From positions 17,422,001 through 17,486,000 of the forward strand of contig CM060731.1 in NCBI GenBank assembly GCA_030704615.1: a stretch of DNA of 64,000 nt. The letters are read 5' to 3'. Origin of the DNA: Takakia lepidozioides. Taxonomy: Eukaryota; Plantae; Bryophyta. A program made the translations under genes and the position numbers. Under the pieces are notes generated by a model, which did not search any database, was not told where the DNA came from, and worked only from the letters and a program-made list of their open reading frames with translations. This document shows positions 2,624 to 61,836 of the stretch, in pieces. Each line of letters begins with the position of its first letter. Positions within the stretch are counted from its first letter, which is position 1.

Positions 2624-5122
2624 TCACCAGAAATCACCACAAGAACAAATCCCATCTTCAAAGTGGTGGAAAGTAGTTAACGTCCCATACAACAATTGCT
2701 CGGCCAACAATCTTTGAGATGAATTTGGTGGAGGTGTGGCAGTCTCCACACACTCAAAGATTCTTGATGAGTCGTGCTGATCAGCCCAAAACCAATGGCC
2801 AGCTTCTCACTGTGGTGGCAAAGAGAAAATTCCTTTCCTCCACATTATGCAATAAAAAACGTGTGTCAGGCACATACCCCGCCTCCTTCATCTGCCCAGA
2901 CAATCTTCTCAGCTCAGCATGGATTTCCTTAATTCTGGGATGCAACTTGTCATCTGGCTCCTTTCTAACCCTCTGACCTTCATCATTCTTCTCACCTTTT
3001 GCAATATCATCCCACCTACTAGCTGTAGCATAGATGTTTGATATAGCAACACATAAGTCGCGGCATCCTGTTCATCCCACTTGAGGATAGATGTTGCCAC
3101 ACATTCAACCATCTCCACATTGCCATGGATTCTGCAGGCACCAAGCAAGGCCTTCCACACCACAACATCTGAATTGATTGGCATTTTATTAATCAGGTCC
3201 ACTGCCTCACGTAATTGTCCCGCACGTCCACAAGGTCTACCATGCAACCAAAGTGCTTTATTGGCGGGGTGGCACCATGATCTTGACTCAGGGAATCGAA
3301 GTAGCGTCTTCTTTCATTCGGTAGGCCACTGTGGCTGCATGCAGAGAGAACACATATAAAGGTGATATTGTCCAGCTTCAAGCCTTTCTTTTGCATTCCT
3401 TCAAATAGTTGCAGGACCTCCCTATGACAACCGTGTTGGGCATATCCTGCGATCATCGCATTCCACGGCACCACATTTCATTCAGCCATATTGTCAAATA
3501 CTCCCTTTGCATCCTCATTGCACTCACATTTCGCATACAAGTGAACCAGGGCAATGTCTAGAATGACATTTGGTACAATTCCAGCTTTGATGATGTCACC
3601 ATGAACCTCTTTGCCCTTTTCCAGGGCTGCCAGGCTTGCACACGCATTGCAAACGTACACAAACGTGATGTGGTCGGGCTTCACCCCTTCCCCCAGGTCT
3701 CCATCCCGCACCCCTGCTGTGTATATCCTACAAGCATGGCGTTCCATGACACCAAATCTCGTTCAACCATATTGTTGAACACTCCCTCCACATCCTCGAT
3801 GCTCCCACATTTGGCATACATGTCTACGAGGGTATTGTTCAGAATCACATCTGGTACAATTCCAGCTTTGGTGATGCAACCATGCACCTCTTTGCCCTTT
3901 TCCAGGGCTGTCAGGCTTGCACACGCATTGCAAACACAAACAAATCTAATGTGGTCGGGCTTCACCCCTTTGCGCAGAATCTGCTCATAGGTCTCAAAAG
4001 CATTCCTACCACACCCATGCTTGGTAAATCCTGCCAACATTATATTCCACGTGATCAAGATCATTGCGGCATTTTGTTGAATGCTTCCGCATCTTTTGCT
4101 TATAGGTCCCCAAAGCCTCCATCCCACACCCATGTTGTTGTGATCATCGCATTCCACGACACCACATCCCGTTCAGCCATGTTGTCAAATATTCTCTTTG
4201 CAACCTTCATGCTCCCGCATTTCGCATACATGTCAACAAGGCTATTGTTCAAAATCAGATTTGGTACAAGTCCAGCTTTCATATGTCAGCATGGACCTCT
4301 TTGCCGTTTTCCAGGGCTGCCAGTCTCGCACAAGCCTTGAGAATGCAAACAAATGTGACCTGATCGGGCATCACCCCTTGCTGTATCAGTTGATCATATG
4401 TCTCAAAGACATTCCTACCACAACCATGTTTGGTATATCCTGCCACCATATTGTTGAACACTAGACAAGCCTCCCTTACACTCCCATATTTGGCATACAT
4501 GTTAACAAGGGCAGTCTCCCAATTAAGGTATGACAAAATTCCAGCTTTGATAATGTCAGCATGGATATCTTTGCCCTTCTTCAGGGCCACCATGCTGGCA
4601 CCAACATTGAGAACACAAATGAATGTGGCTTGCACACGCATTACAAATGCACACAAACGTGATGTGGTCGAGCTTCCCCCCTTCCCCCATCATGGACCTC
4701 TTTGCCCTTTTCCAGGGCTGCCAGGCTTGCACAAGCATTGCAAACGCTCACATACGTGATGCGGTTGCATTTCACCCCTTCCCCCATCATTTGCTCATAG
4801 GTATGATCCAAGGCCTCCATCCCGCGCCCCTACTGTGCATACCCTGCAAGCATGGCATTCCATGACACCAAATCTCATTCAGCCATATTGTTGAACACTC
4901 CCTCCGCATCCTCAATGCTCCCACATTTGGCATACATGTCCACGAGGGTATTGTTTAGAATCACATCTGTACAATTCCAGCTTTGGCGATGCAACCATGC
5001 ACCTCTTTGCCCTTTTCCAGGGCTGCCAGGCTTGCACACGCATTGCAAACGCACACAAACGTGATGTGGTCGCGCTTCACCCCTTCCCCCATCATTTGCT
5101 CATAGGTCTCCAAGTCCTCCAT
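2624..5122 (-). pseudogene. PLS-class PPR-E-DYW RNA-editing factor pseudogene (copy 1, C-terminal part)
   Basis: Repeated P/L/S motifs (e.g. '[33 protein letters not shown]', 'GVKPDHITFVYVCNACASLAALEKGKEVH'). E domain 'VWKALLGACRIHGNVE'. DYW domain read manually at 2624-2880: [44 protein letters not shown]. Many frameshifts and stops. Confidence 0.9.
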
Positions 5123-6566
5123 CTACTCAACACCCTTGTCTCCATGTATGTCAAGTGCGGGAGCATCATGGATGCTCACCAAGTGTTCAACAGAATGCCT
5201 CAACGATCTTTGATCACGTGGAATATAATGTTGGCAGGAGTTACCAAGCATGGGTGTGGTAGGAATGCTTTGGAGACCTATGAGCAACTGCTGCGCGAAG
5301 GGGTGAAGCCCAACCACATCACGTTTGTTTGTGTTTGCAATGCGTGTGCAAGCTTGGGAGCTCTGGAGGGAAAGAGGTCCATGGTGACATCATCAAAGCT
5401 GGATTTGTACTAGATGTCATTCTGAACATTGACCTGGTGGACATGCAGTATGTCAAATGTGGGTGCAGCAAGCCTAATGCGAAGGGAGAGTTCAACAATA
5501 TGGCTGAACGAGATGTGGTGTTTTGGAGTGCCATGATTGCAAGGTAAGTGCAGGATGCGTATGGGATTAAGGCTTTGGAAACCTAAGAGCAAATGATGTG
5601 GGAAGGGATGAAGCCAGACCAGGTCATGTTCATTTGTGTTTATAATATGCATATGCGAGCCTAGCAGCCCTGGGAATGGTCAAAGAGGTTTATGGTTGAC
5701 ATTATCAAAGCTGGAATTGTACCAGATGTCATTCTGAACATTCCCCTGGTGTACATCTATGCTCACCAAGTGTTCAACAAAATCTCTCAACGATCTTTGA
5801 TCACGTGGAATATAATGTTGGCAGGATTTACCAAGCATGGGTGTGGTAGGAATGCTTTGGAGACCTATGAGCAAATGATGTTGGAAGGGGTGAAGCCCGA
5901 CCGCATCACATTTGACATTTGCGTTTGCAATGTGTGTGCGAGCCTGGCAGCCCTGGAAAAGGGTAAAGAGGTCCATGCTGGCATCATCAAAGCTTGAATT
6001 GTACCAGATGTCATTTTGAACACTGCCCTGGTGGACATGTTGCCAAATTTGGGTGCATTGAAGATGCAAAGGCAGTGTTTGACAAAATGGCTGAACGTGA
6101 TGTGGTGTAGTGAAGTGCGATGATCGTAGGATATGCACAACAGGGTCGTGGGATGGAGGCTTTGGAGACCTATGAGCAAATGATGCAGGAAGAGGTGAAG
6201 CCCAACCAAATCACCTTTGTTGGCGTTCGCAATGCATGTGCAAGCCTGGCAGCCCCGGAAAATGGCAAAGAGGTCCATGGTCACATTGTCAAAGCTGGAA
6301 TTGTATCAAATGTCATTCGGAACACTGCCTTGCTGGATATGTATGCCAAATGTGGGAGTATTGAACATGAAAAGAGGGTGTTTGACATTATGGCTGAATG
6401 TGATGTGGTGTTGTGGCACGCAATGGTCGCAGGACATGCACAGCAGGGTTGCGGGATGGAGGCTTTTGAGACATATGAGCAAATGATGCAGGAAGGGGTG
6501 AAGCCCAACCACATTACGTTTGTTTGTGTTTGCAATGCGTGTGCAAGCCTGGCAGCTCCAGAAAAG
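5123..6566 (+). pseudogene. PLS-class PPR pseudogene segment, inverted relative to 2624-5122
   Basis: ORFs 4997-5413, 5692-5997 and 6120-6620 carry the same PLS motifs on the + strand ('LLNTLVSMYVKCGSIMDAHQVF', '[15 protein letters not shown]'). The strand switch occurs at ~5122/5123. Confidence 0.88.
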
Positions 6567-6759
6567 GTGAATGCCTGTTGGATTACAGAGAGAAGCAGGT
6601 GCATTCAGATTTGGAACTAGTGTTATAAGTAGGGTTGGGGTGTTTTATGGAAGAACTCCACACCGTCAGTGTCAGCTGCTAGCACCAAGGCAAGGATGTA
6701 TGCCTGATTTGTACACATGCAGGGATAGCTGAAGGATCAGGAATAAAGTGTGGGTCCAG

Positions 6760-7440
6760 ATTCATCCAAGAGGGCCGGATTTCAAACACAAGATTACTTC
6801 TGATTCCCCGTGGATCAATAGCTACAAGAAACCTCCATGGGTAGATGGTCAACTAGAAACAGCAGCGGCAACAACACAATTGATAGAACTAGGCACCGCT
6901 AACAAAGGCACCTTCTTCAACACATTTCAGCCTGTTTCCCCTGTTATCAGAGTCATCCCTAAATTTTCATGTTGAATTATGCAAGTTAGCTTGTTGATGG
7001 ATCTATGGTGGTTTTGGAGTGATTTTGACATGTTACTACCAATGTGGCAACAGGAAAGTATCGAAAAACAGATAACAGAGACGAGGAGAAGCTCTAAAAT
7101 GAACACGTTTCCGACCCAAGTCAATGGTGGAACAATTGAGGCAAAAAGGTGAATACCTCTTGGAAGCAGACGCAAGTCAGCATAGGAACTCGTGTGATAA
7201 GTATGGTTGGGGTGTTTGCTGGAAGATTTCTAGGCTATCATTGCTAGCTGCTAGCAACAAGGCAAGATGTATGCATGATTTGTGCAGAGGCATGGATAGC
7301 TGAAGGAACGGGCATAGAGTGTGGGTCCAGATTCATCCAAGAGGGCCGGATTTCAAGCTCCAGATTACCTATCATTCCTTGTGGAAGGATAGCTACAAGA
7401 AACTTGCATGGGTAGATGGTCAACTGGAAGCTGCAGCAAC
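6760..7440 (+). pseudogene. Exons encoding OSB-like PDF motifs (degenerate)
   Basis: Exon after CAG at 6757-6759: 'IHPRGPDFKHKITSDSPWINSYKKPPWVDGQL'. Exon ~7053-7148: 'KTDNRDEEKL*NEHVSDPSQWWNN*GKK' followed by GTGAAT. Exon ~7331: 'IHPRGPDFKLQITYHSLWKDSYKKLAWVDGQL'. These match the W..F..P..WWDNR..K...PDFKHK...LW pattern of OSB PDF motifs. Confidence 0.7.
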
Positions 7441-7519
7441 AATGCTCCTTCACTTAACTTGCCCACCAGATTCCAAGCTACTCATGCAAGAGACAAAGCT
7501 AAGTATCTGAATCTGCTGA

Positions 7520-8110
7520 ATTGTTTTCCTTGGTTTATAGGGGGCAGGGCAAAGAATCATAGGTAGTTTTGTGCTTGAAATGCAGCCCTCTTGCATGAAT
7601 CTGAACCCACATTCCATCCCTGCTCCTTCAGCTATTCCTGCCAAGAGAAAGGGAGAGGGAGGGCGCGGCAAGGAGAGGGAGAGGCAAGGAGAGGGAGATG
7701 GTAGCCAGTGGTGTGCTCACTGTTTGGGGGGGGGGGGTGGCTGTCAGGTCGCTCACGAGCTGGAGCAAGCAGGCTGTCGCCGCCGCAGCAGCCAGCCAGC
7801 CACCAGCAGAGAGCTCCCGCATTTGGTGAGTATTCAGCGATGCTCCCGCACTTGACATACATGTTGACGAGGCAGGCGTTGCATAAAAAAATGTCTGGCT
7901 TAAATCCAGTTTGGATAAGGTGAACGTGCACCTGCCCACCAGTTTCCACGCTTTTTCATCTTTATGCTAAAATGTCTCATCGGTTTAATTAAAGGGGGTA
8001 GGGCAGCGAATCGACATATTACGTAGCTTTGTGCTTCAAATCCAACTCTGTCGGACGAATCTGAACCCACACTAGTCCACCCTTGCTCCTTCAGTTATCC
8101 ATGCCAAGAG
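7520..8110 (-). pseudogene. Further degenerate PDF-motif exon copies and an N-terminal PPR fragment on the - strand
   Basis: The reverse strand gives 'IHARGLHFKHKTTYDSL' (~7545-7600), 'IRPTELDLKHKAT' (~8020-8060) and 'ETGGQVHVHLIQTGFKPDIFLCNACLVNMYVKCGSI' (7840-7949). Each PDF exon is preceded by the same intron-end sequence seen at 6720-6759. Confidence 0.65.
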
Positions 8111-37165: not shown

Positions 37166-37652
37166 TCGTAACCCACATCGCCTCCGCTTCTAACACCAAG
37201 AGCTCCACGGTGCTCCTTGCATAACACCTTGTTTCTCTCATTCTCAAGAAAAACCACAAGTGCTACAAATAACTCGTATGCTGGCACTCCCGATACGAGC
37301 TCATCTTTTCTCGAGTGATCAAGAAGAAGAATACAGCACAAGCTCACAAAGCTGAAGCATAAAACTCATGCATATATAAACTCATCACTCAAATACAAGT
37401 CAAGCCACGTGCACCCCACACATGGTGAATCCACACTTACGGCGTCATAGCTAGGCGCGGCGAGGCCAACTCGAGAAAAATGAGCCTCCCTTCCCGATCA
37501 CCTTCCCTCCCGCGCTTGTCCGTGAAGATAACCACTCCAGGGCCTAAATCTGCCTTGACCCCTGATTGACACTTGGGCCAATCCCAAATATCAATATGTA
37601 AAAGCTAGCTATTTCCTAGCTAGTTTCACACTAGTGGTAAAATAACTTGACA
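37166..37652 (-). repeat. Putative 5' LTR of copy A
   Basis: The minus strand begins TGTCAAGTTA..tgtgaaacta(g)ctag..caagtgt..tcag..gtcaag..ttatcttcacg, homologous to the LTR at 45459. The inner end is inferred from a TGG-initiated PBS-like site at 37149-37163. Confidence 0.65.
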
Positions 37653-40600: not shown

Positions 40601-40742
40601 TGCTGATAGAACGGTGCATCAAGCCTGGGTAGAGACCTTTGTACAATCAGGAGAGGAGGAGAGTGCGGTGATTGCACCGGGACCACCTCAGTTGTCGCCA
40701 TTGGACACCACACCTCTTGTGTGGCAGTGCCCGGATGAAGAC

Positions 40743-41690: not shown

Positions 41691-44600
41691 TTGGCTATGG
41701 CTGACAGCGCAGCGAGTACGGAGTACACTTCCCTTGATGGTCTCTCTGCCTACCGAGATGGTACAGGCAACAAGTGGGGGCGAATAGGTGAGGACCACGA
41801 GGTGCAGGCCGCATCCATGGCACACGTGAGAGGTGCTCGAGGTTCAAAGGGAGTGGGCAGCCAAGGCGGCGGTGATGGATGAGGTTGGGGATTTTTCTCG
41901 GGTTGAGGAGTCATCAAGGATAGATGATGGGGCATGATGAGGCATTGTCACTGACAGAGCAGGCAGTGGTCACTGCTCAAGAGGTTGCAGCAATTGCAAC
42001 CACGGGACGCGTCTCTACCTCTAAGCCTGCTGGACTCAAGGTTACAGTCATCGGAGGACAACTATGAGCCTGATGTTGGACCCATAGTCCACCGGAGGAG
42101 AGAGACGATGCCTACGGAGTTCTTGGGGCTTACATGAACTAACTGATTGGTTGCCTTCAGTTTGAAGGACTTGGAGCACTGAAGGGTCAAGAGATTCACA
42201 TTGAATTGGCCACTGACACGCCAATCTTTCGGAGACCCTATAGATACAGTGACATGGAGAGGTCCTTGATTCAGATGAGGACTCGGGACCGCTAGGAGGC
42301 TGGTTTGGTGGAGCTTATCTGGTGGAGAGTATGCTTCAAGCCACAGTGATGCTAGCCAAGAAGATGTCTATGGCAATTGGACGGAGAGACGTATGTGCGG
42401 TGATTACCGGCCTGTAAATCGTCAGACCAAGTCTGATAGGTATGCCATGCCAACACCAGAGGAGATCTTTGATGCCATTGGGCATGCCAAGGTCTTTAGC
42501 ATTTTGGATTTACAATCCGGATATCACTAGTTGCCGATCAAGGAGGCGGATAAGCAGAAAACGACATTCTGGGGGATCAATGAGCATGGGAAGGATTGCC
42601 TATACCAGTGGCGGTTCTTACCATTTGGGCTTAAGAACGCTCCTACAGAGTTTCAGAGAGTCATGGACAGGATTCTAGCAGGGGTGGAGTTTGCTCGGTG
42701 CTACATAGATGACATCATCATCTTTAGTGCAACGATGGAAGAGCATGAGAGACACCTTTAGGTGGTATTTGAGCGCCTGAGGGCACACGGATTGAAGTTA
42801 CATCCGGGGAAGTGTAAGTTTTTCCACAACCAAATTCAGTATCTGGGTCACATGATATATCCTAGAGGATTGGGGGTACAGCAGACTAAGGTAGAGGCCA
42901 TTGCACAGATTCCACGCCCCACAGATGTGAGCCGAGTTTGAGCTTTCATGGGGTTGACAAACTATTATAGACGGGTTTGTCAAGGGATTTAGTGCCATTT
43001 CAAAGGCTCTGACCAAGCTGACCAAGGTGGACCAGGAGTGGCAGTGGGAAGATGAGCAAGAACAAGTTTTTCAAGAGCTCAAGGCGAGGTTGACCTCGGC
43101 GCCCATCTTGAGACGACCTATTAGGGGGCATCCTTTTCAGCTACATACAGATTGGAGCATGCTGGGGCTTGGAGCGATGCTCACACAGGTAGAGTTTGTA
43201 GTGGCTTATGTTAGCCGCTCGAACAACGCTGTAGAGGCTAAGTATAACTCATATGAGGGAGATTGCTTAGCTGCAGTGTGGGCCGTGGCACACTTCAGGT
43301 GCTATCTATACGACAATATCTTCACCCATGTCACGGATCACCAGCCACTCAAGTGGTTGATGGAGTCAGACAAGCTTACAGAAAAGCTTGTACGGTGGGC
43401 ACTCATACTCCAGGAATATGACTTTCAGGTGGTACATCGACCCGGTCTAGTCAATAGGGATGCAGATGGGTTGAGTCGCAATCCATGCACGAGCCAGCAG
43501 GATGACACTTGAGCTCGGTGGCATGGTGAGACGGATGAGGAGATGGTGCCCGGATGGCATGCATCTGCATTTCTGTGTATCTTGGCAGCGGAAAGCCAGG
43601 TTGGACCTACAACAGGAATGACTGTAGACCGAGTGTCTGAGGACCCTGAGGCCAGCAATGAGCAAGGTGGCGCCAAAGATATACATGAGGATTCAGTTGT
43701 GTTGGACTACCTCCGCACTGGAGACACGGCAGCCACTGTGACTGCCAATGAGAGGGATCGGATCCTACAACGAGCCAAGAGGTTCAAGTGGGAGGGGACA
43801 TACCTGCTCCGAGTGTAGGAGGATGGTCGAGTGAGGATTGTGCCTCACCCAACACAGCGGGCACGGTTAGTGCGGCATGCCCATGAGGAGTTGGGGCATT
43901 TTGGGGTGCGACGCACTCATAGTCTACTACAGGGGCAGTATTGGTGGCGTGGTATGCACACAGAGGTGCAACAATTTGTGGCTAGGTGCATGGTGTGTGA
44001 CAGGGTGTGTGCTTCATTCAATGCCCCTACACCACAATTGCACCCTCTTCCGATCATGGGATTAGGCTACAGGTGGAGTTTTGACTTCGCAGGGCCATTG
44101 CCACTGACCATGCCCCACAACAAGTACGTGTTGATGATGGTGGAGCACTTCTCCAAGTGGATCGAGTTGGTTCCATTGCCTGATAAGGCTAGTGAGGGAG
44201 CTGCGTATACATTCTTGGATCGTGTACTTAGCCGATTCGGTGCTCCAGCTGAGGTACTCACGGATCAAGGGAGAGAGTTCTTGGGGGAGTTTCAGGCGTT
44301 GTGTGACAAGGCCTTGATAGACCACCGCACCACTTCTCGAGATCATCCTGAGGCTGAGGGCTTGGCAGATAGGGTTGTGCAAACGATTAAGAGGGGTTTG
44401 CGCAAGTATGGCTTGCATAAGGGACACCTTGGAGATTGGGACCTTCAGCTATCCTGGTTAGCCATGGGCTACAGGTTCAGAAAGCAAGCATCACTTGCCT
44501 CGTTCTCGCCTTATTTCCTTCTCTTTGGCCGAGAGCCAAATTTGTCCGTGTCTTTTCGCAAAGAGGCTGCAGTAGTCCTCAATCTTGACGATCCGGACGT

Positions 44601-44978
44601 ATGGGCACGTGCATGTGGTCAGCACGCGAGTTGTTCAAGAAAGTCATGCCCATGGATTTCGAGAATCTTGCCATTGCACAACATCGTGATACGTTGAAGT
44701 ATGCTATTATACGTGGTGGGGGCTATTGTCCTGGGATTCGGAGATTTCACCCTAGTGACTATGTTTATCTGCAGCAGACTGCTCCAACGACCCTGGATGT
44801 GACTGCAGGAAGTGTTATTTTGAGGGTTCAAGAGGTATTGCCCTCAGGCGTCCTGATCTTAGAGGGTCGGGATGGCATGACTTGGAAGGACCATGTACGT
44901 AATTGCGCGCCATGTCACCTTCCGAATGTCGATGGCAGGATTGACCCCAACCTGGCAGTGGTACCTGCAAGTTTGAGG

Positions 44979-45113
44979 TGCATGTTGTGTGGGTCTGCTA
45001 GAGGGGCAGCCACCATGCTGGTGTGTGGTCGATGCTCTAGAGGTTGGCATATGGGATGCTTGACTCCACCTCTTGAGATGGTTCCTGATGGGGATTCGTT
45101 ATGTCCGCATTGC
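44979..45113 (+). other. PHD finger (Cys4-His-Cys3) at the integrase C-terminus
   Basis: CMLCGSARGAATMLVCGRCSRGWHMGCLTPPLEMVPDGDSLCPHC in ORF 44601-45122, in frame with the integrase C-terminal region. Confidence 0.9.
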
Positions 45114-45458
45114 ATTGGATAGTGGGAGTGGATACAACCATGGAATGCTAACAAGAAATGCAAGGCCAAGTTACTAGGAGACCAACACACGAGATCCTGG
45201 CTCAAGTTCATAGATTGCAAGATGGCGATGGGCTACTCTTGTACCCGGCCTCTTGGTCTATAGAGTTTGAGTACAATAGGGACAGTGATAGAGGACTTAG
45301 TACGGTTGTGGCTATTACATCTTGTAGCTATCTGGAGTTAGAGTGACCTAACCACCAGCTAGGGGGGCGATTGCGGCAGACTACTGTATTGTGCATATAT
45401 GTGTGGTGTGGTTTGGACAGCGTTGTAGTTATGTAGCGATACGTATGCGCACGACAGC

Positions 45459-49075: not shown

Positions 49076-49534
49076 TTGAACTCAAGATGGTTTTTGTTTA
49101 TGTTTTACAATTTTAAGAAAAGGGGAACGAAGCCCTGGAGTCAAAAATAACAGAGTCATAGAGCCATGAGCACAAATTTGAAAGTTCTCGGCACATTCTC
49201 ATTTAGCCATAATATGCCTCTCATTTTACAATAATTGGGACGTTATGGCGCACGCGCGAGCTGACCGGTGGGCCCCGCGCACGGACGCCCGGCACCCCCC
49301 CCGGACCCCCCCCCCCGCCCGCCGCTGCGTCTGAGGAGATCAAACACACACGGACCGACTCCAACGAGACTGAGACGGTGAAGAGAAGAGTGGATCGGAC
49401 AGTCACTGTCGCACTATCTGAGCCAGTTCTGCAAGTAACCTCCACTAGACAGTCAAGGTTGCCATCTGGTGCCACAGAGATGGAGGATACTGAAAGACGA
49501 GGAGCATCTGAAAAGACTTTGCTTGCATATGCAA

Positions 49535-50565
49535 CATTGCAATCACATGCTCCAGCTGTTGATATTTCTGTGACAGGATGGCTCCTACCCCTTTGCTGGA
49601 CCAGTCCACATCAAGGATGAAAGGTCTGGAAAAGTCAGGTCTAGCCAAAACAGGAGCAGTCATCAATTTCAAACGCAAAGCTTCAAAAGCATACTGAGCC
49701 TCAGCTGACCATTTAAAGGGGATATCCTTCCTGGTCAAATTGAACAAAGGCACACATATCATAGCAAAGTCTTGCACATAAATTCGATAATAACCAAACA
49801 TCCCCACAAACACCCTCACCCCCGTGGGGTTCTTCGGGATGGGAAAGGACTGAATTGCAGCAATCTTACTTGGGTCAGGCCTGACTCCCTCAGCAGACAC
49901 CACATGACCAAAAAAAAACCAACTCATCATTACCAAAAGTACATTTGTCTGGGTTCAGACGCAGGTTAGCAGCATGCAACCTCTCAAAGACTCGAGCCAA
50001 ATGTTGCAGGTGTGTGTCCCAATCCAGACTGTGAACATTAACATCATCCACAAAGACCTTTGCACACTCTCCAATTTCCATGGCCGGGATGGTATTCATG
50101 GCCCGCTAGAACGTGGCAGTGGCATTTTTTAAGCCAAATGGCATGACCGTCCATTCGTATAAACCCCTCTTGGTTATGACTGCAGTCCTCTTCACATCAT
50201 CCTCATTCATTTTGATATGCCAAAATCCACTTTGCAAGTCCAAAGCAGAGAACCAGGCAGCATTACCAAGGCTATTGAGCACATCATGTATCAAGGGCAT
50301 GGGATAAGAGTCCCTCCTGGTCAGATTATTCAGCGGGCGATAATCCCCACATAATCTTTTGGACCCATCCTTCTTGGGAGGTAGAGTCACCGGGCACGAG
50401 TACTCCGACTTGCTCTCCCGCATCTTGCCTTGCAAGATAAGAGCCTCAATTTGACGTTGCACTTCCCCTTCCTCCCACTCAGACAATCTGCTGGGCTGAC
50501 TCCTGCATGGTGGAAACCCTTGGGTATCTATAACATGCTCCACCATTGAGCAAAACCCCTTCATG
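49535..50565 (-). mobile_element. Ty3/gypsy RT-RNase H fragment
   Basis: ORFs 50106-50564 ('RLCGDYRPLN..LDLQSGFWHI..MPFGLKNA'), 49890-50099 ('VFVDDV') and 49445-49936 ('FILDVDWSSKGVGAILSQ'). Confidence 0.88.
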
Positions 50566-51367
50566 CCATTTTCAAGTGTAAATTTTTACTGAGAAACAAT
50601 TTCATAACATTAAGGGTGACATAACAAAAAAGCAGATACTATTTATCCAGGGTCGACTGTAATACATGCCTAATGTTTGGAAATTACCTAGGTGAGGTGC
50701 CTAAATAATAAAAACGAATCTGCCTAATAATATTCCATTTTTATTAATTATTAGGCGCGGAAGTGGCTAATAAGCACCTCTGAATTTTGTGTGGCCTGGT
50801 AATGAGGCTGGTCAGACGATGGGGCCCGCCGTCTCATTAACATAGGAGCAAACTACATTCATGCAGTGAGGACTTAGTTTTTTTTTGGCATATGAAATTT
50901 ACAACTACCTCCATGCAGGTAGTTTTAGGATTTTCTACATGAAGGTAGTTGCAAAACCAAGCTGAAACTATCTGCATGAGAGTAGTTACACACCCACCTC
51001 TACCCACCTCCATGGAGGTAGTTGTAGTCATTGCCTACCACCAGAACCACGTTCAGGGAATGGAACCCGAGACCTGCATCGCCACATCATCATCGACGTA
51101 CCACCAGACCACAACCTCCACCGTGCCAACAAACAATAGTTTTTTTCATATACTAGGGCTTCGCGTTGCTCCGCACTACTAGCGACGAATTCTGAGAACC
51201 ACGTTCAATTTTTCACAAAAAAAGGGTGGGTCATCCCCACGGTGTTACATGCAGGGATCCCGTGTTTTGTTTTTATCTAGAAGAAAAATGGCGGATTTGC
51301 ATTTCAATGTTCAATTTTCACAAGCCGCATCAATCAATAACAACATACCCAAATACCCTTACATTCA

Positions 51368-53990
51368 CTATATGAACTTTCAAGCATCCACCATGGGATT
51401 GGATCTTGGTGGGTTAAGGCTAGCTTTTGACAATATTCATGCAAGTTCGTCAAGGGCTCCATCCAAAGCCACACCACGAGAAACAAACAAACATGTCCAA
51501 ATTTAAGATGCTGAACAAACTTGTGCACATGGCTACCCATCTCTTCAAGCTTTGGAGACACTCCACCACCCAAACCCAGAATTAGGACAACACTCTGATT
51601 TCCATCCACTGTCACCAGAATCAGTCAAAAATCACCCCTTCAGTCACGTGCAATTGTGGGGTGACTTCCCACCTATGCCGAGTAGACCCCACTATCAAGA
51701 AATGGTGGATGGTCTGAGTAGCTAGAAAGATCAATAAATGAAGCAAGACACTAGCATCTTTCCAAGAAAACATCCTTTCACCACTAATCACCACAAGAAC
51801 AAATCCCATCTTCAAAGTGGTGGAAGTAATTAGCGTCCCATCCAACAATTGCTCGGCCAACAATCTTTGAGATGAATTTGGTGGAGGTGTGGCAGTCTCC
51901 ACACACTCGAAGATTCTTGATGAGTTGTGCTGATCAGCCCAAAACCAATGGCCAGCTTCTCACTGTATGTGTCAGGCACATACCCCGCCGCCCTTCATCT
52001 ACCCAGACAATCTTCTCAGCTCAGCACGGATCTCCTTAATTCTAGGATGCAACTTGTCATCTGGCTCCTTTCTAACCCCTCTGACCTTCATCATTCTTCT
52101 CACCTTTGCAGTATCATCGCACCTGCCTGCTGCAGCATAGATGTTTGACATAGCAACACATAAGTCGCGGCATCCTGTTCATCCCCCTTGAGGATAGATG
52201 TTGTCGCACGTTCAGCCATCTCCACATTGTCATGGATTCTGCAGGCACCAAGCAAAGCCTTCCACACCACAACATCTGGATTGATTGACATTTGATTAAT
52301 CAGGTCCACTGCCTCATCCAGTTGTCCCGCGCGTCCAAGAAGGTCCACCATGCAGCCAAAGTGCTTTACTGTCGGAGTAACACCATGATCTTGACTCAGG
52401 GAATCGAAGTAGCGTCTTCTTTCATTCAGTAGGCCAGTGTGGCTGTATGCAGAGAGAACACATATAAAGGTGATATTGTCCGGCTTCAAGCCGTTCTTTT
52501 ACATTCTTTCAAATAGTTGCAGGACCTCCCTATGACAACCATGCTCTGGGCATATCCTGCGGTCATCGCATTCCACGACACCACATTTCGTTCAGGCACA
52601 TTGTCAAATACTCCCTTTGCATCCTCAATGCACCCCTTCCCCCGTCATTTGCTCATAGGTCTCCAAGTCCTCCATCCCACGCCCCTGCTGTGCCTATCCT
52701 GCAAGCATGGCGTTCCATGACACCAAATCTCGTTCAGCCATATTGTTGAACACTCCCTCCGCATCCTCAATGCTCCCACATTTGGCATACATGTCCACGA
52801 GGGTATTGTCTAGAATCACATCTGGTACAATTCTAGCTTTGGCGATGCAACCATGCCCCTCTTTGCCCTTTTCCAGGGCTGCCAGGCTTGCACACGCACT
52901 GCAAACGCACACAAACGTGATGTGGTCGGGCTTCACCCCTTCCCCCATCATTTGCTCATAGGTCTCCAAAGCCTCCATCCCACGCCCCTGCTGTGCATAT
53001 CCTACAATCATCGCACTCCACGACACCACATTTCGTTCAGCCATACTGTCGAACACTCCATTTGCATCCTCGATGCACTCACATTTGACATACATGTCCA
53101 ACAGGGCAGTGTTTAGGATGACATCTAGTACAAATCCAGCTTTGACGATGTCACCATGGACCTCTTTGCACCTTTCCAGGGCTGCCAAGCTTGCACACGC
53201 ATTGCAAATGCAAACAAACATTATATAGCGGTCGGGCTTCACCCCTTCCCCCATCATTTGCTCATAGGTCTCCGAAGCCTCCATCTCGCGCCCTTGCTGT
53301 GCATATCCTGCAATCATCGCCCTCCACGAAACCACATCTCGTTCAGCCATACTGTCGAAAACTCCCTTTGCATCCTCGATGCACTCACACATACATGTCC
53401 AGTAGGGCAGTGTTCAGAATGACATTGGGTACAATTCCAGATGTGACGATGTCACCATGGACCACTTTGCACCTTTCCAGAGCTGTCAGGCTTGCATACG
53501 CATTGCAAATGCAAACAAACGTTATGTGGTCGGGCTTCACCCCTTCCCCCATCATTTGCCCATAGGTCTCTGAAGCCTCCATCCCGCACCCTTGCTGTGC
53601 AAATCCTGCAATCATCGCCCTCCACGACACCACATCTCATTCAGCCATACTGTCAAAAACTCCCTTCATACATGTCCACGAGGTATTGTTCAGAATGACA
53701 CTTGGTACAGTTGCAGCTCTGACAATGTCGTCATGGACCTCTTCGCCCTTTCCCAGAGTTGCCAGGCTTGCACACGCATCGCAAATGCACACAAATGTGA
53801 TGTGGTAGGGCTTCTTTCCCTTTTTCCAGAGCTCCCAGGCTTGCATACGCATTGTCAAACACAAACAAATGTGATGTGGTTGGGCTTCATCCCTTCGCGC
53901 AACATTTGCTCATAGGTCTCCAAAGAATTCCTACCACACCTATGCTTGGTAAATCGTGCCAACATTAGCACGTGATCAAAGATCGTTCAG
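51368..53990 (+). repeat. Direct segmental duplicate of ~2184-5122
   Basis: Starts 'ctatatgaactttcaagcatccacc' at both 2184 and 51368. Collinear through the 3' flank, DYW, E and PPR motifs, with indels. Confidence 0.85.
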
Positions 53991-55590
53991 GCATTGGTGA
54001 GCATCCATGATGCTCCCGCACTCAACATACAAAGGGTGTTGAGTAGAAAAACACTTGGCGTGAATCCACTTTGGATAATGTGAGTGTGCATCTGCTTTCC
54101 AGCTTCCAGACCTTCTCTCCTGATGCACTTAAGCAAGAAACAGACATGTGCATCTGAATCTGCTGAAATGCCTCCTTGGTTTAAAGTCTGTAGACCCTCC
54201 GTCAATCTTCCTGTCACACAAAGCATCTTCACATGCCCAGAAGTTTCATAAGAGGCATTGTGGACTCTTCTCTTAAATATCCTCTTTCAGAAGCTGTGGT
54301 CATGATTGCGGTGCCTGATTCTATCAACTGTGCCGCTGCAGCTGCTGCCTTTAGTTAACCATCTGCCCATGCAGGTTTCTTGTGGCTATTGATCCACAGG
54401 GAATCATAGGTAATCTGGAGCTTGAAATCTGGCCCTCTTGGATGAATCTGAAGTGTTCCAGTAAACACCCCAACCCTACTTACCACACTTGTTCCTATGC
54501 TGACTTTCCTCTACTTCCAACATGCATTCACCTTTTTGCCTCGATTGTTCCACCATTGGCTGGGGTCTGAAATGTATTCATTCCAGAGTTTCTCCTCGTC
54601 TCTGTTATCTGTTTTTTGATAGTTTCCTGTTGCCACATTGGCAGTAACATGTCAAAATCACTCCAAAACCACCATAGATCCACCAACGAGCTAACTTGCA
54701 AAATTCAACATGAGAATTTAGGGACGATTCTGATAACAGGGAAATACAGGGTGAAATGTGTTGAAGAAGGTGCCTTCATTAGCAGTGCCTTGTTCTATCA
54801 ATCCTAAATTGCATCTGATTCTCTCTATAGTCCAACAAGCATTCACCTTTTTGTCTCCATTGTCCCAACATTGACTGGGGTCGGAAAAGTGTTCATTCCA
54901 AAGCTTCTCCTCATCTCTGTTATCTGTTTTTGGGTACTTTCTTGTTTCCACATTGGCAGTAACTTGTCAAAGTCACTCCAAACCACCACAGATCCACCCA
55001 ACGAGCTAACTTACAGAATTCAATATGCATCTCAGGACCTAGTCTGATGAGATGGTAAAACAGGCTGAAATAGGTCGAAGAAGAAGGTGCCCTCACCAGA
55101 TTGTCCTTGACCTTGTGTCATGATCCATGGAGGATATGACCGACCATCAACCCAAAAGGACCTCTTGTGTGTGCTGCTTGTGTGGGTAGTCAGGTCGGAT
55201 TGGTTTGTGAGAAGTTAGAACCACCACGGTGCATCTGAGCAGGTAGAGTTTGAAACACCCAAGCTGACTCTCCCAAGAACTTTGCAGTAAACATCACGAA
55301 AAACACCAAGTCATGGTACTAACAAATGCATCTCAGGGCCGAGTCTGATGAGAGGGCAAAATAGGCTGAAATAGGTCGAAGAACAAGATGCCATCACCAG
55401 ACTGTCCTTGACCTTGTGCCATGACCCATGGAGGATTTGACCGACTACCAAAATGACCTCTTGTGTGTGCTGTTTGTGTCTGTAGTTAGGTAATGTCGGA
55501 TTGATCTGTGAGAACCACCACGGTGCATCTGAGCAGGTAGAGATTGAACACGGCCTGCTAAGACCAAGCTGACTCTCCCAAGAACCTTGC
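51778..55590 (-). pseudogene. PDF-motif repeats + PLS-PPR-E-DYW pseudogene (copy 2)
   Basis: PDF-type exons at ~55430-55590 and 55120-55290 (degenerate), ~54847-54945, 54532-54626 and ~54318-54447. PPR start 'MLCVTGRLTEG..GKQMHTHIIQSG' (53987-54232). PLS array 52490-53950. E domain ~52100-52490. DYW '[36 protein letters not shown]' ending at 51778. Confidence 0.85.
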
Positions 55591-56915
55591 AAACATAAGG
55601 AAGAATACCAAATCATGGTACTGACAGGAGCTAAGAGCCCACCTTTGCAGGATGGACAAACTTCTTCAGATTGTACATTAAGAAAAAGCCACACCCTTCC
55701 CCAATCATTTGCTTGATCCTTCATCTGCCAAGACAATCTCTTCAGCAAGTCTTCAGCTCAGCATGGATTTCCTCAATTCGTTGGGAGCTTGCAGCTTGCA
55801 AGGTGCACAATGGCGGAAAACGCAGATCAACATCCGGGCATTTTGGGCAGTTCGGAAAAAGTTGTCGCGGCAATTTCTATTGGCTTATTTCGGGCGGGCA
55901 GACCGGGCAGATATAAAGAATTTGACGACGAAAGCGTGGCACTATGGCACCCTATTCTTGCTCTACACTAAACTAGCTTCCGACCTTGAGTCCTCGCTAG
56001 AATAAGAGGAACTAGGGAATAGGGATCGTTTTAATGTAGCGGGGCCGCTGTCAGGTCCCGTCCCCTCTGCACCCTGCGGCCTCATTACGAGGAGGCCACA
56101 CAAAATTCTGAGGCCTAATAAGCTAGGTACTTAAAGTAGAAACACCCAAATGTACAATCACCCCACTTGGGTCTTTTTATAAAGCTATGCAGGATTTTCT
56201 CTCAAGTACGGTAGTGAAGCTCCGAGAAGTGTTCAAACATTCAAACAACAAACGGTGCCTTCACCAGATGCAGCCGGTGGGCGCTGAGGAAACAGAGAAT
56301 AGACGAATAGACCTGTGCAGACGTATCGGTACATCCTTCTGACCGTTGCTCACGCTCCGCGTCTTCTTCAAGACTGGATTCTGAAGCATATGCCCGAGAA
56401 TGCTTCCTTGCTTTTCTCGAAGGCAATGCATCCCTGGGGCCCACACAGACAACTCCATGCTTGATTGCATTCGATGAGGCGAAATTCTGCATTGATTGCC
56501 AGTGTATGACTCTCGGATCTTCTGTGGAGCATACCTACCAGAGTTGCAGTCATGAGAGCACCCTTTAGCTGACTGGTGGACTGCTGGTTGCTGCAGGACT
56601 CCAGATATCGTGAAACACTCTACACGTCCTTGTAGTCTTTACTCGTCTGGGGAGGTTTGCCACATATGGGTCCTGATAGATAGCCTTTATGCCATACATG
56701 ATGGAAGGCAGAAGCACAATAGGTTGTCAGACCACAATATAGATCCTCTCTTTGCTTGGATTGAGTGGGACAGAGCTGCCAGGGCCATGAGGAGAACGGA
56801 GATCGACACGCATGGAAACATAAATTGAAGAGTCTCTTCCTATTTGTCTGAAAGTGCCCAGTCCTGGATATTGAGCAAGGGATAGTACCAGGATTCCGTA
56901 CCTGAGCGAAGAGAC

Positions 56916-59900
56916 ATGGGGTCAATGAAAGGCTCACCTGTGATGAAATTCAAGTGGTGGTTGTGTGCGACAATCACAGTGTTAGATATGATTAATGCCC
57001 AGGGGGCGCCAATTCCCACCACATTGGAAGGTCCCTTTCAGCCTATCACTATCAGCTTTGATCCATCCCTGCGACATGGGAGCGATGATTTGGCAGTAGA
57101 TGATCCACGCGTCTTAAAGCGTGTTACAGCGGTTTTTCCAGAACAGATTGCATTGGCACTTTCAACGCCCGATGCTATGTGGATCTCGTGGGTTACAGGT
57201 GCGGTTTCCCCCTCTTTCTGCCTTGATGACATTCATAGGCATGTTAGATAGAGAGAAGACTCCTTCCGAAACCAGCGACGCATGTAGGAGCTGCCATATT
57301 GAATGGATAGAAGTTTTGGACATCATTTAGATCTTGCAACAGAATGGGGACGGAAGCATACGGAAAAGTAGTCTTGGTTGTAAGGCAAGAGCTTGGGGGA
57401 CAGAAAACTGTGTTGAAAAGCCATTGGAAATTGTCAATATTTGCTTAGTATGGCCCATCTCAGAACTATGTAGTTAAATGAGACACAGACAGAATGGACC
57501 AGAACACACAGCTTAAGACAGTGATTAAACTGTGTGAAGTGTAGGGGATGCGCAGATAGGCCCAATGGTGACCCCATTAGACCCCACCTCCGTGGCCACT
57601 GTGGTACAGTATGGAACACAATCGGGCAACTACAGCCTTTCCACGCAGGGTACATCGCTGGTTTATAATCAGCTGTATCCTTATCCGGGCCTGCTCAATT
57701 ACACATCGGGCATTATTCACCATGCACGCCTCACAGGTGCTCCTCTTTACTTCTCAAACCTTTCCAGTCTTCCATTAGTAACGCAATTAAGGACGTTGGG
57801 TAATTTCAATCTTGAATTTCATACTAACTCTCCCTCTTCTTGGTTTATGCGACTTGTAATTTGGAAGTAAACGGGCTCAATTTAACTGAGTGAGGACTTG
57901 CAGACAACATCCTGTATGGTTGGCAGGGATGCATAACACCATGGATTCTCCCCTGGAGACTGTACCCAATGTATGCTTTACTTTAAGAGGAACAGAAAAA
58001 GGATGTGAGCCATTAGACACCACCAGCAGCCTGCCAGCCACTCGATCTCTGTGCAACGTTTGGGGTACCGTTGCTCTCTAGGGTTAATGTGTTGCATACA
58101 GAGTCCCCAAGTTCCCGCGTTCGGAATGGATGTCTTCCATGCTTTCTTTCTTTCTCTTGGACAGAAATCAGGCATTTGCATTTGCCGTCTAAGTTACCCT
58201 CCAACATAACATCACAAAAGGAATCCTCCATCCAAATCCTATCAGCAGTTTGGTCCATTACAGCCTGGGCATTGGGAGTCCTCTTCTTCCTACAGTGAAA
58301 TTGCATAACACTTTTCGGAGACCGGGAAAATAAAACAAAGATCTTCAGGACTAGGGTTTAAACATGTCCACACTCAACACACCAGGTTTGTGAGGGCATT
58401 GGATGCTCGGGAGTGTTAGGAGAGATGAGGTCCATACAGGCATCTTGGATGAGTAGGAGGTACACCATTCAATGCTAGCGGGATTACAACTGGAAGATTC
58501 TACTTCTATGGCTGTTTCGGCTTGTTCCAGATTTTCTTTACTTTTTTTGCAAGACATTCCCAATCTTTGCAATCCCTGGATCTGTTACTAATCAGCTTGC
58601 ACCTGCTCAGCCCTACTTTGAAGAGACCTTTGTGTCTGAGGGATTGCACATCTGGCCATGCCTACTGGCCACGCTGCAGAAAGTCCTCCGCAAAGTATAT
58701 AGGAAAGAATGCTAGAGTGATGTCAGAGCAGATTGTGGTACTTGAACCAAGTAGACTTTACTGTAGGACTCTTGACTTCTTTGATGGGAAGCTGGGAAGA
58801 GAGAGCAGCAAGCTCTTGTGCAGGACTTGCTGGTCTCATTATATTGAGTTACTGGTGGCACTCATTGATACTAACACTGTATTTTATGTCACTAGGGCTG
58901 CTTCCCAGCACACAGTACTACTTCAGCTGCGGAGATCCTTCACTAAACATGATGAGTGAAGAGCACACCTTCACCACTATCCCTCTCCCTGCCCCAAATG
59001 CATATCCAGCGCGCATTGCCGTTGTTGGAGATCTGGGGCTTACATACAATTCAACCACCACAGTTGATCACATCCTTCAAAACAACCCAACACTGTTGCT
59101 GATACTGGGGGACTTGAGCTATGCCAATCAGTACTTGACAACTGGAGTTGGGTCATCGTGCTATTCATGTGCATTTCCAACGGCACCTATCCGGGAGACC
59201 TACCAGCCTCACTGGGATGAATGGGCTAGGTATATCTCTGCCCTCTCTCTCTGGCTTTCATCTTTGCTTGCACTTCTCTGTGTGCTTGTCAGAGTTGTTC
59301 TTGTTGTTCAATTTTGAGGAATGCTAAACGTATTCATTGAATGTTTTGCAAGTCTATATCCTCTGGAAGGGGGATCTTGTGAATTTTGGACAGTCCCTAG
59401 ATACACTGGACCGTTGTGGGGCTGAAATTTGAAGGGAAATTGAATTTTGCCGCTCTAGTCTCAAAAGTGTAGAAAGTCAGCTCTCGGCTGTGCTTGTTAC
59501 ATCACTGAGGCCTCCTATCAAGATTCTGATGTCTGATAGAAGGATACAGTATAATTTCTCCCTGAACTGAGGTGGTCTATGCTCACATTGTAGGTTCATG
59601 CAACCTTTGACGTCGACTGTGCCAATGATGGTGATTGAAGGCAACCATGAAATTGAGCCTCAGGCTGAAGGGGCCACATTTGTTGCCTATAAATCACGTT
59701 TCGCAGTTCCCTCAGAAGAGAGTGCATCTAATAACAGTCTCTACTACTCCTTCAATGCAGGGGGCATTCACTTCATTATGCTTGGGGGTTATATTGACTA
59801 CAACAGAACAGGTGGGTGAACTTGGTCTTTGGATGCATGGGATTGATGTCATCTGGAAACCAGCAGATTGGTCCAACTATTTAACGCTGGTGTTTGGATT

Positions 59901-61836
59901 GAGTATGGTCGAGCTTTTTACCTACAATTCTGTACATGTTGGGTGTACATCAGCCACAGTTTCCCAGAACTCAAAGTCGCCATCCTTACTCAATTTGTAG
60001 CAGTTGTAACAAATGAGTTTGTCTTGTGTTGTCGGAACACCTAATCAGAGTTTTACTAGTTGGGTAGATCCGCATGTGCTCCTCAGCTTTTCAGCCCCTG
60101 CCCCCCAGGTTGGGCACCAGTTGGTAATTGTTAGGAGTTTCTAGTGTGTCTGAAGACTTACTTTTGTCATATCTCAAGTATACAAGTCCAGGGCTGCTAG
60201 AAACCTCATCCATTTGTAAGAGAGTGCTAATGGAAGTGAGTTGGGAGGGACCAGGAGCACAGTTTGCATGGCTGCAGAACGACTTGCTTAGCGTGGACCG
60301 TACTGTGACCCCATGGCTAATTGCTGCATGGCATCCTCCATGGTATAACAGTTATAACTCACACTACCGGGAGGTGGAGTGCATGAGGCTACAGATGGAG
60401 GATCTACTGTATTCACACGGTGTCGACCTCGTTTTATCTGGTCATGTGAGGGAACATTGGTCATAACCAACCTTTGTGCTTGCCTAGAGCTTGTAAGGGC
60501 GAGAAGGATACTAGCAGATGCTTTGATATAAATTAAAGATAAGGTTGATACAGAATGCCAATCTTAGTCCCAGCTCTTCTTAGACCGAACTTCTTGGCAG
60601 GGGGGAGAATCCATAACTAGACTGCATTTTCTGTCATTTTCTGTCATCTTGTAGTTGTAGACAATTGACGTGGGGGAGAAGGGAGGAGGAGGGAGGCTCC
60701 TACAGACAGGTGGGCAGAAAGATTAGGGGGGTACAGCTCCAAGCTTCATACCATGCACTTGATTGTGAAAGAATGCTCTCTACTCCTTTGTAGAGAATGA
60801 AGGATGGCAGGTCGGGTAACTTTTCTGGATGGCCCTTAGTTCATAAATGATGGATGGGGACTTGAGGGTGACTGCATTGATTAAGTGAGATGTAGGACTG
60901 GAAAACTAAGCTCTCGCTCTTTAGTAATGCTCTGACCTTTGAGAAGAAATCATGGTGTGGGCATGGATAACCAGGTACATGCATATGAGCGATCGAACCG
61001 GGTCTACAATTACAATCTGGATGCATGTGGCCCTGTGTACATAACAGTGGGTGATGGCGGTAACATTGAGGAGATTGACATCACGCATGCAGATGATGTT
61101 GGCCAGTGCCCTAAGCCCACTGATAACACCCCTGAATATGGTGAACTTTGCCCCTTCAATTTCACATCAGGGCCTGCTGCTGGTCAGTTTTGCTGGGACA
61201 GGCAACCTGAGTGGAGTGCATTTCGAGAGAGCAGCTTCGGCCATGGCATTTTGGAAGTAAACTCTCATCCACGATCCGAAGAGGCACTATTTGCAGCCAA
61301 GTGACTGTAGCAGGATGTTTGTCAAGGCATCTAGTTCGGAGTTGTGTTATATTTCTTTAGCAGAGCATCCATTCATTGAGCATTTGTTTGTTAAAGTTAG
61401 TTCCCAGACAATAGCTTCCTGCCTCAATGATTGTAAACAAAATGTTAGTGCAATCCTAACTGCAACAAATTGGTGAATGGGACCTTGTGGAATAGTATTG
61501 TAAAAGGTTCTGCAAGTGTAGAATGCTCCTAAATACCACATTTCTGACAAGATAGGTCTAGTCTAATATATACCAAGTTTAGCACTAGTGGTCATTGAAT
61601 TGAGGATCAGATGTGGTCGAATGCTTCCTTTCCAGCAAAGATCTTCTACTGTATGATGCTCTGTCAAATGCTGAGGGGTGGGAGAAACGCAGGTGGTGAA
61701 CTCAAGCCATGCACTGTGGACATGGCATCGTAACCAAGATGTTTATGGTAGTGAGTTTGGTGACCAGATTTACATTGTGCGACATGCAGACAACTGCCTG
61801 AGTCAAGCTCGAGGCCGCAGGTTGACAACTGGGTGA
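56916..61836 (+). CDS. Purple acid phosphatase, PAP15/PAP23 (phytase-like) subgroup. Predicted exons 56916-57198, 57545-57736, 58896-59229, 59594-59811, 60255-60445, 60975-61256, 61693-61836
   Basis: Signal-peptide-like start, then 'IPTTLEGPFQP', 'PEQIALAL' and 'YTSGIIHH'. Metal-ligand motifs GDLG, GDLSY, GNHE, HPPWY and GHVH. C-terminal 'FRESSFGHGILEV..ALWTWHRNQD..GDQIYIVR'. All GT-AG junctions are phase-consistent. Confidence 0.93.

What the first reader, a model, noticed from the sequence alone, without database searches (positions are those of the whole stretch)
51778..55590. PPR-DYW deaminase gene apparently fused to N-terminal OSB-type PDF (ssDNA-binding) motifs
Seen: on the same strand and immediately upstream of the PLS-PPR start are repeated exons. 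One type is 'EEKLWNEYISDPSQWWNNRGKK', followed by a GT..AG intron and then 'IHPRGPDFKLQITYDSLWINSHKKPAW'. More degenerate copies lie further up ('NPTLPNYRHKQHTQEV', ~300-bp duplicated units at 55026-55620). The same PDF/PPR linkage appears at 5123-8110. Established: PDF motifs are the ssDNA-binding modules of organellar OSB proteins, and DYW is the cytidine-deaminase domain of C-to-U editors. Inference: the parent gene encodes (PDF)n-PLS-E-DYW, an editor that might be tethered to organellar nucleoids/ssDNA or might act on DNA. I do not know this architecture as characterised. Both local copies are pseudogenes.
Basis: partly seen in the sequence, partly recalled or inferred. Interest (0 to 1): 0.72.

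Follow-up and report, generated by a model that had tools for sequence, protein, structure and literature searches.

The report
RNA editors carrying a DNA-binding module
This is a dead copy of a very large plant gene family whose intact members in mosses, a liverwort and a clubmoss join a likely organelle RNA-editing enzyme to a small module otherwise known for gripping single-stranded DNA, which likely helps the editor hold on to its targets.

Summary
On the minus strand an intron-split PDF motif (54597-54352) runs through one stop and one frameshift into a PLS-PPR-E-DYW pseudogene ending at 51778. PDF and PPR belong to one gene. Intact PDF-PPR proteins exist in Diphasiastrum, Sphagnum, Ceratodon and Calypogeia: 121 of 208 proteins retrieved (a set partly selected for PDF), 45 with a complete DYW zinc site. 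The same motif retrieves OSB3. RNA contigs from this organism splice the PDF intron and bridge PDF to the first PPR. DNA depth suggests thousands of related copies (rough). Across lineages the PDF is 59% identical, against 68% for DYW and 21% for upstream sequence. It was absent from 36 gymnosperm PPR proteins. No Pfam model or solved structure covers it, and ten literature searches found no description. This scan noted the fusion twice before on other DNA. Best reading: C-to-U RNA editors with an accessory single-strand clamp (inferred, untested). DNA editing has no support here. The second local copy (2.6-8.1 kb) is scrambled, so it does not show the same order cleanly.

The parts
55717..55798 (-). 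Stray E+ fragment of another PPR-DYW copy upstream of the PDF repeats; the locus is a mosaic
   Evidence: blastn to 2884-2949 and 51992-52056; translation
55410..55505 (-). Degenerate PDF second-half exon, frameshifted; acceptor AG at 55507-55506
   Evidence: translation; joint 55505|55643 with CT..AC ends in run X5; X5 loose end at 55507 reads by hand as a PDF first-half exon
55110..55205 (-). Second degenerate PDF second-half exon in the duplicated ~300-bp unit
   Evidence: (weak, 2.2 bits)
54847..54912 (-). PDF first-half exon, upstream copy, with GT donor at 54846
   Evidence: PDF profile 16.7 bits; splice joint 54447|54847 in RNA-type runs X5 and X7, not in DNA run X1
54532..54597 (-). 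PDF first-half exon core (EEKLW...NRGKK)
   Evidence: PDF profile 23.6 bits
54448..54531 (-). 84-nt phase-0 GT..AG intron inside the PDF motif; shorter than its 182- and 193-nt counterparts at 7149-7330 and 6567-6759
54352..54447 (-). PDF second half (IHPRGPDFK...PAW), with a stop at 54357-54355
   Evidence: PDF profile 14.3 bits
53990..54351 (-). Linker and first PPR unit, one frameshift near 54270; matches the unit that directly follows the PDF in Diphasiastrum fusion proteins
   Evidence: blastp best stretches are the post-PDF segments of P0029, P0189, P0036, E about 1e-11 to 1e-12; bridging contigs
52499..53989 (-). PLS-type PPR array with stops and frameshifts
   Evidence: Pfam PPR families
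51778..52498 (-). P2-L2-S2, E, E+ and DYW domain, disabled (PG box deleted, YSEK, CGDCH kept, stop in the DYW triplet)
2627..5124 (-). Second PLS-E-DYW pseudogene, 87% identical to the first over its 3' part and sharing its PG-box deletion; keeps HSEK
5122..7429 (+). Inverted PPR array joined at 6566/6567 to a PDF intron, then PDF half-exons at 6760-6861, 7083-7148 and 7331-7429
7833..8060 (-). Very degenerate PDF second-half start followed in frame by a PPR L-motif fragment

Best explanation
The locus is a dead, partly scrambled copy of a large family of PLS-PPR-E-DYW proteins that carry one to three OSB-type PDF motifs in front of the PPR array; the intact members are likely organellar C-to-U RNA editors, and the PDF likely acts as a sequence-independent single-strand clamp that holds the editor near its target. 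Shown: the architecture, the homology of the motif to OSB PDFs, its conservation, and spliced transcripts of paralogs. From established knowledge: the PPR array reads an RNA sequence and DYW deaminates the target C. Inferred: after import, the PDF binds unpaired nucleic acid, either displaced ssDNA at transcribing nucleoids or the RNA just 5' of the PPR-bound stretch. This would raise avidity or keep the target open, a job done in seed plants by separate cofactors. The fusion likely arose by capture of intron-containing PDF exons from an OSB-like gene before mosses and lycophytes split.
For: The window's spliced PDF alone matches 34 of 120 PPR relatives at E<=1e-11. Of 208 proteins from two searches, 121 have PDF+PPR and 45 also have HxE and CxxC. 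Pfam confirms PPR+E+DYW in Sphagnum P0194, Ceratodon P0197 and Diphasiastrum P0060. The fusion's PDF region retrieves a protein named OSB3 at E=1.2e-20. Core W, P, D, R, K, PDFKHK, LW and PxW columns are 89-100% conserved in 149 fusion motifs and 75-100% in 168 OSB motifs. Mean identity in 23 cross-lineage pairs: PDF 59%, DYW 68%, C-terminal PPRs 53%, upstream 50 aa 21%. The splice joint 54447|54847 is in X5 and X7, not in DNA run X1; X7 is spliced over an intron of the neighbouring gene. Contigs bridge PDF or linker to the first PPR (X7 54170-54381, X9 54045-54346). The main X5 indels near 54270 (+1 and -3) would together restore the frame (my arithmetic). N-termini of 85 proteins are S/T-rich (17% vs 9%) and D/E-poor (7% vs 12%), as transit peptides are. 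AlphaFold folds the PDF as an ordered module (pLDDT 87 alone), and the whole model best matches a PPR-DYW:RNA crystal structure (9kfx, E=2e-48). Review passages say the PDF of OSB1 suffices for ssDNA binding.
Against: No binding, localisation or editing was tested for any member. Only 45 of 121 PDF+PPR proteins have a full DYW site; the rest are E-type or truncated models. No single contig spans PDF to DYW in this organism, the bridging contigs have low depth (4 and 7), and X9 is of unknown type. The moss editor PPR56 edits in E. coli with only 14 residues ahead of its first PPR, so an N-terminal module is not needed by every editor; I did not test whether PPR56 has a PDF. Upstream PDF copies are often degenerate in Diphasiastrum. 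The DYW tree needs 6 changes of PDF state, so a single origin is not shown. Whether a PDF binds RNA at all is untested, and the primary OSB paper was not available.
Confidence: 0.55

Rival explanations
1. The PDF is a structural cap or protein-contact module: it packs on the first PPR and stabilises or oligomerises the PLS solenoid instead of binding nucleic acid.
For: In Sphagnum, Calypogeia and 5 of 103 Diphasiastrum proteins the PDF's last helix runs straight into the first PPR through a conserved short junction. The model is ordered across that junction (pLDDT 77-84). MORF cofactors are restricted to seed plants, and PDF was absent from 36 gymnosperm PPRs.
Against: 98 of 103 Diphasiastrum proteins, Ceratodon and this locus have a longer variable linker. 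The basic and aromatic residues are kept as in OSB motifs. Tandem copies of two or three motifs suit avidity better than capping.
Confidence: 0.2
2. The PDF is a passenger: a PPR-DYW retrocopy landed in an OSB-like gene, took over its promoter and transit-peptide exons, and later expansions carried the motif along.
For: The PDF keeps an intron while the PPR part is continuous. Several gene models break or retain sequence at the same point in the motif, including an OSB3 model. PPR expansions in non-seed plants are reported to be driven largely by retroposition.
Against: The PDF is 59% identical across moss and lycophyte pairs while the sequence just upstream is 21%, which a neutral passenger would not keep for that long. 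This may explain the origin, not the retention.
Confidence: 0.1
3. Many members are not editors: PPR plus PDF couples a specific RNA to ssDNA, for example at R-loops or replication primers, or acts in splicing or RNA stability.
For: 76 of 121 PDF+PPR proteins lack a complete DYW site. OSBs act in organellar recombination control.
Against: Many of those models are visibly truncated or end in E motifs, which are normal for editors that borrow a DYW (established knowledge). Complete members keep HSEK, CxxC and DYW.
Confidence: 0.1
4. The fusion is a DNA deaminase: the PDF holds organellar ssDNA and DYW converts C to U in the genome.
For: The PDF is an ssDNA-binding motif in OSBs. Designed PPRs can bind ssDNA (5orq).
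Against: The DYW domains are ordinary, with intact editor signatures. A site-specific DNA edit would erase its own target, and thousands of such enzymes would be mutagenic (inference). One search on DYW and DNA substrates returned only an unrelated bacterial-toxin paper.
Confidence: 0.05

Closest known systems
PLS-class PPR-E-DYW C-to-U RNA editing factors (moss PPR56 and PPR65; synthetic PPR-DYW, PDB 9kfx)
   Same: PLS triplets, E and E+ motifs, DYW domain with HxE and CxxC in intact relatives; the fold matches 9kfx (TM 0.76 on the target).
   Different: One to three intron-split PDF motifs between the presumed transit peptide and the first PPR; I found none described for editing factors.
[quoted passage not shown]
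   Same: Homologous PDF motif with the same core residues, and tandem copies.
   Different: No OB/SSB domain; the PDF is N-terminal to a PPR array instead of C-terminal to an OB fold.
Known accessory-domain fusions of PPR proteins (RRM-PPR such as maize PPR4; MORF-P, RRM-E and RRM-DYW fusions in PMC13386178)
   Same: An auxiliary nucleic-acid-binding or cofactor domain built into a PPR protein.
   Different: The added domain comes from DNA maintenance, has no Pfam model, and marks whole expanded subfamilies (103 Diphasiastrum proteins retrieved) instead of scattered genes.

Membership tests
PLS-E-DYW RNA editing factors | Array of P, L and S type PPR motifs | tested here: met
   Pfam PPR hits in the window and in relatives; about 101-residue periodicity visible
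PLS-E-DYW RNA editing factors | E/E+ motifs and DYW domain with HxE, CxxC and terminal DYW, in intact relatives | tested here: met
   45 of 121 PDF+PPR proteins have HxE and CxxC; Pfam DYW_deaminase 139-148 bits in P0194, P0197, P0060
PLS-E-DYW RNA editing factors | Intact reading frame and zinc site in the window's own copy | tested here: not met
   Stops, frameshifts, PG-box deletion, YSEK, stop in the DYW triplet
PLS-E-DYW RNA editing factors | Organellar targeting peptide | tested here: inconclusive
   Composition of 85 N-termini is transit-peptide-like; no predictor available
PLS-E-DYW RNA editing factors | Site-specific C-to-U editing activity | not testable with these tools
   Needs an assay
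OSB proteins | PDF motif of about 50-55 residues | tested here: met
   Fusion PDF retrieves OSB3 and 60 OB-bearing proteins among 146 new representatives; shared core columns
OSB proteins | N-terminal OB/SSB-like domain with the PDF C-terminal to it | tested here: not met
   No SSB hit in the full Pfam lists of P0194 and P0041 at E<=0.1, while OSB-like P0193 and P0137 gave weak SSB hits; the PDF precedes the PPR array
OSB proteins | ssDNA binding through the PDF | not testable with these tools
   Known for OSB1 from review passages; untested for the fusion

The most novel reading that the evidence does not exclude
Early land-plant RNA editors carried a built-in ssDNA-binding module taken from the organellar genome-maintenance machinery. 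It tethers them to transcribing nucleoids for co-transcriptional editing, underlies the hyper-expansions of editors in mosses and clubmosses, and was dropped in seed plants when MORF cofactors arose.
Probability: 0.25. Interest if true: 0.85.

Novelty: new variant of a known kind. Interest (0 to 1): 0.62.

Why it matters
RNA editing factors of non-seed plants are treated as PPR array plus DYW, and the heterologous assay I checked trims the N-terminus away. A conserved module with no Pfam model sits in front of the array in moss, liverwort and clubmoss proteins, and marks the main expanded subfamily retrieved from Diphasiastrum and apparently thousands of copies in this genome. It offers a direct test of how MORF-less plants run very large editing loads and of whether editing is tied to the nucleoid. 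It could also be a portable part for engineered PPR editors. The locus itself is a pseudogene; the value lies in the family.

Tried and rejected
No whole genome is held for this window, so no intact paralog of this organism could be read. A homolog search with the intron-containing read-through of the window's PDF found nothing among 54 candidates. The run search listed no holder on record as RNA; I treated X5 and X7 as RNA from their behaviour. The ESM Atlas gave no usable hit for a PDF motif. No Pfam family covers the PDF, no PDB sequence matches it (best E=0.72), and fold searches gave nothing clear (Foldseek best E=4.5; VIA-align best Z=2.6); this does not show a new fold. The idea that the PDF exons belong to a separate OSB gene was rejected. 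A Pack-type transposon origin was considered from a 46-bp, 80% inverted repeat at 50766-50808 and 56079-56123; by eye the match does not extend and high DNA depth continues past it to about 56290, so it is left as weak. The DYW tree does not settle a single origin; I ran no clade test, and P0207/P0208 appear misplaced because they lack the E region. Zaegel 2006 could not be opened. No complex prediction was run, as the open question is nucleic-acid binding.

Full report
Observation. The quoted peptides are on the minus strand where stated. A first-half PDF exon ends at 54532, an 84-nt GT..AG intron follows (54531-54448), and the second half starts at 54447. There is no further intron in my reading: the second exon runs through a stop (54357-54355) and a frameshift near 54270 into the first PPR unit, then a broken PLS array and a disabled E-DYW end at 51778. 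A PDF profile built from 46 database motifs finds six half-motifs in the window at 8-24 bits, against at most 3.2 bits in 20 shuffles. Further upstream are a spare first-half exon (ends 54847), two degenerate second-half exons in ~300-bp duplicated units, and a stray E+ fragment. The locus at 2.6-8.1 kb is a scrambled relative. There the PDF exons lie after a plus-strand PPR array, and it shares the PG-box deletion with the 52-kb copy, so both likely descend from an already damaged copy.

One gene or two. No genome is held, so I used relatives and reads. A search with the longest PPR frame listed the best 120 of 6534 hits; the closest by identity (about 55-62%) are Diphasiastrum complanatum proteins. 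I place the window only as a non-seed land plant. The window's own spliced PDF matched 34 of these 120 at E<=1e-11 and three more at about 1e-4. With the refined profile 39 of 120 were positive: Diphasiastrum 33 of 45, Calypogeia 1 of 1, Adiantum 1 of 12 and Ceratopteris 1 of 3 (both partial motifs), unnamed 3 of 23, Cryptomeria 0 of 20, and Gb_-numbered proteins (Ginkgo, inferred from the prefix) 0 of 16. The profile was built from these hits, so the Diphasiastrum count is partly circular. Several negative Diphasiastrum models begin right after where the PDF would end. A search with the PDF region of P0026 gave 177 hits of 684-2177 aa, 120 listed, adding five Sphagnum species, Ceratodon, and OSB-type proteins including one named OSB3 (E=1.2e-20). 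Of the 208 distinct proteins, 127 have a PDF, 121 also have PPRs, and 45 of those have HxE and CxxC; this set is partly selected for PDF and gives no prevalence. The window's first PPR unit best matches the unit that directly follows the PDF in these proteins, which ties its two halves to one gene type.

Reads. Nine of ten listed runs hold part of the stretch; none is on record as RNA. I laid five of them. X7 has a contig spliced over an intron of the neighbouring phosphatase gene, and X5 and X7 lack cover in stretches that DNA run X1 covers, so I read them as RNA. The joint 54447|54847, with GT..AG ends on the minus strand, is in X5 (depth 830) and X7 (53) and not in X1. It is the PDF intron spliced out in paralogs whose first half resembles the upstream exon. 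Contigs bridge the PDF second half or linker to the first PPR (X7 54170-54381, depth 4; X9 54045-54346, depth 7, type unknown). In X5, nearly all depth at 54268-54276 carries a 1-base insertion and a 3-base deletion; by my arithmetic these together restore the frame, though I did not see that they lie on one contig. No contig spans PDF to DYW. In X1 the summed depth over 54030-55758 is 2.3e5 to 9.6e5, against 56-121 over the phosphatase gene. The tool warns that this is no copy number, so I take it only as a rough sign of thousands of related copies.

The motif. A seven-sequence PDF profile finds 1268 cluster representatives at E<=0.001 among 1.84 billion. Of the 146 new ones among the best 150, 60 carry an OB domain, 14 PPRs, and 72 neither or are fragments; Pfam on 42 of the 146 agreed where it gave hits. 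The core residues are kept alike in 149 fusion and 168 OSB motifs. In 23 cross-lineage pairs the PDF averages 59% identity, DYW 68%, C-terminal PPRs 53% and the 50 upstream residues 21%, which points to selection. AlphaFold gives an ordered helix-strand-strand-helix module (pLDDT 87). The full Sphagnum protein models at 82.6 and best matches a PPR-DYW:RNA structure. No Pfam, PDB-sequence or fold match exists for the PDF, which likely explains why domain surveys miss it. A quick tree of 79 C-terminal regions, limited to proteins with a complete DYW end plus the window's read-through, holds a clade of Sphagnum, Diphasiastrum and unnamed proteins (SH-aLRT 99; 10 of 11 PDF-positive), with the window's copy beside it (95). 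Ceratodon and the large Diphasiastrum expansion lie elsewhere, and the PDF state needs 6 changes. An origin before the moss-lycophyte split is likely; a single origin is not shown.

Mechanism. PPR-guided C-to-U editing by DYW is established knowledge, and the intact members keep its signatures. The role of the PDF is inferred. I favour a sequence-independent single-strand clamp (0.55), binding displaced ssDNA at transcribing nucleoids or the RNA 5' of the PPR footprint. Rivals are a structural cap (0.2), a passenger from exon capture (0.1), a non-editing RNA-DNA coupling role (0.1) and DNA editing (0.05). Against a required role, PPR56 edits in E. coli with only 14 residues ahead of its first PPR; whether it has a PDF I did not test.

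Literature. Ten full-text searches showed no description of the fusion in the rows listed; five of them listed only part of their matches (20 of 36, 20 of 80, 20 of 178, 12 of 13, 1 of 2). 'PDF domain' with 'pentatricopeptide' and 'RNA editing' gave 0 papers. 'PDF motif' with 'PPR' gave 2: an OSB review whose PDF passages do not mention a fusion, and an unrelated virology paper seen only in the listing. I read sections 6 and 10 and term passages of PMC13386178 (2026 survey of editing factors and their domain fusions; 0 hits for PDF or OSB). I read term passages only of PMC13393729 (2026 OSB survey; 0 hits for PPR), PMC6963530, PMC6451138, PMC9459714, PMC10226603, PMC10482289, PMC6397227 and PMC9508816. 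Zaegel 2006 was not held. Subscription papers and all supplements were not seen and may mention the fusion. This scan has two earlier notes on the same fusion in other genomes; my reading was formed before seeing them. Look-ups by sequence and by place returned nothing.

Verdict. A real and apparently undescribed variant of PPR-DYW editors, seen here through a pseudogene. Interest 0.62.

Noticed in passing
window 56500-60000 (+): Purple acid phosphatase-like gene in several exons; weak Pfam hits and a spliced contig in run X7. Used as the low-copy control.
   Followed up: partly
window 20509-26579 (+): Ubiquitin-like domain plus HECT domain gene; the name UPL5-like is recalled.
   Followed up: no
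window 30393-45122, 49445-50585 and 488-1668: Retrotransposon remnants, including two long inverted copies at 30473-34102 and 37967-43453; types judged by eye.
   Followed up: no
window 50766-50808 and 56079-56123: 46-bp, 80% inverted repeat flanking the pseudogene; possible transposon ends, weak.
   Followed up: partly
proteins P0123, P0141, P0211-P0214, P0216: Unnamed proteins with 7-13 tandem PDF motifs; those checked for it (P0212-P0214, P0216) have no OB domain, and several start with hydrophobic targeting-like peptides. Possibly a non-plant PDF family.
   Followed up: no
protein P0023, residues 10-33: Unnamed protein with a DYW:KP-like end (label from recalled motifs) has an N-terminal stretch resembling the PDF's last third, below profile significance; a lead that U-to-C editors may carry PDF remnants.
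   Followed up: no
proteins P0004, P0029, P0043, P0096, P0115, P0193: Gene models start, break or retain extra sequence at the point in the PDF where the window has its intron, including an OSB3 model; suggests a shared intron position.
   Followed up: partly
window 6566-6760 (+): A PPR motif is joined through a short shared sequence to the PDF intron donor; splicing would put half a PDF in frame after PPRs, a snapshot of exon shuffling in the family.
   Followed up: partly
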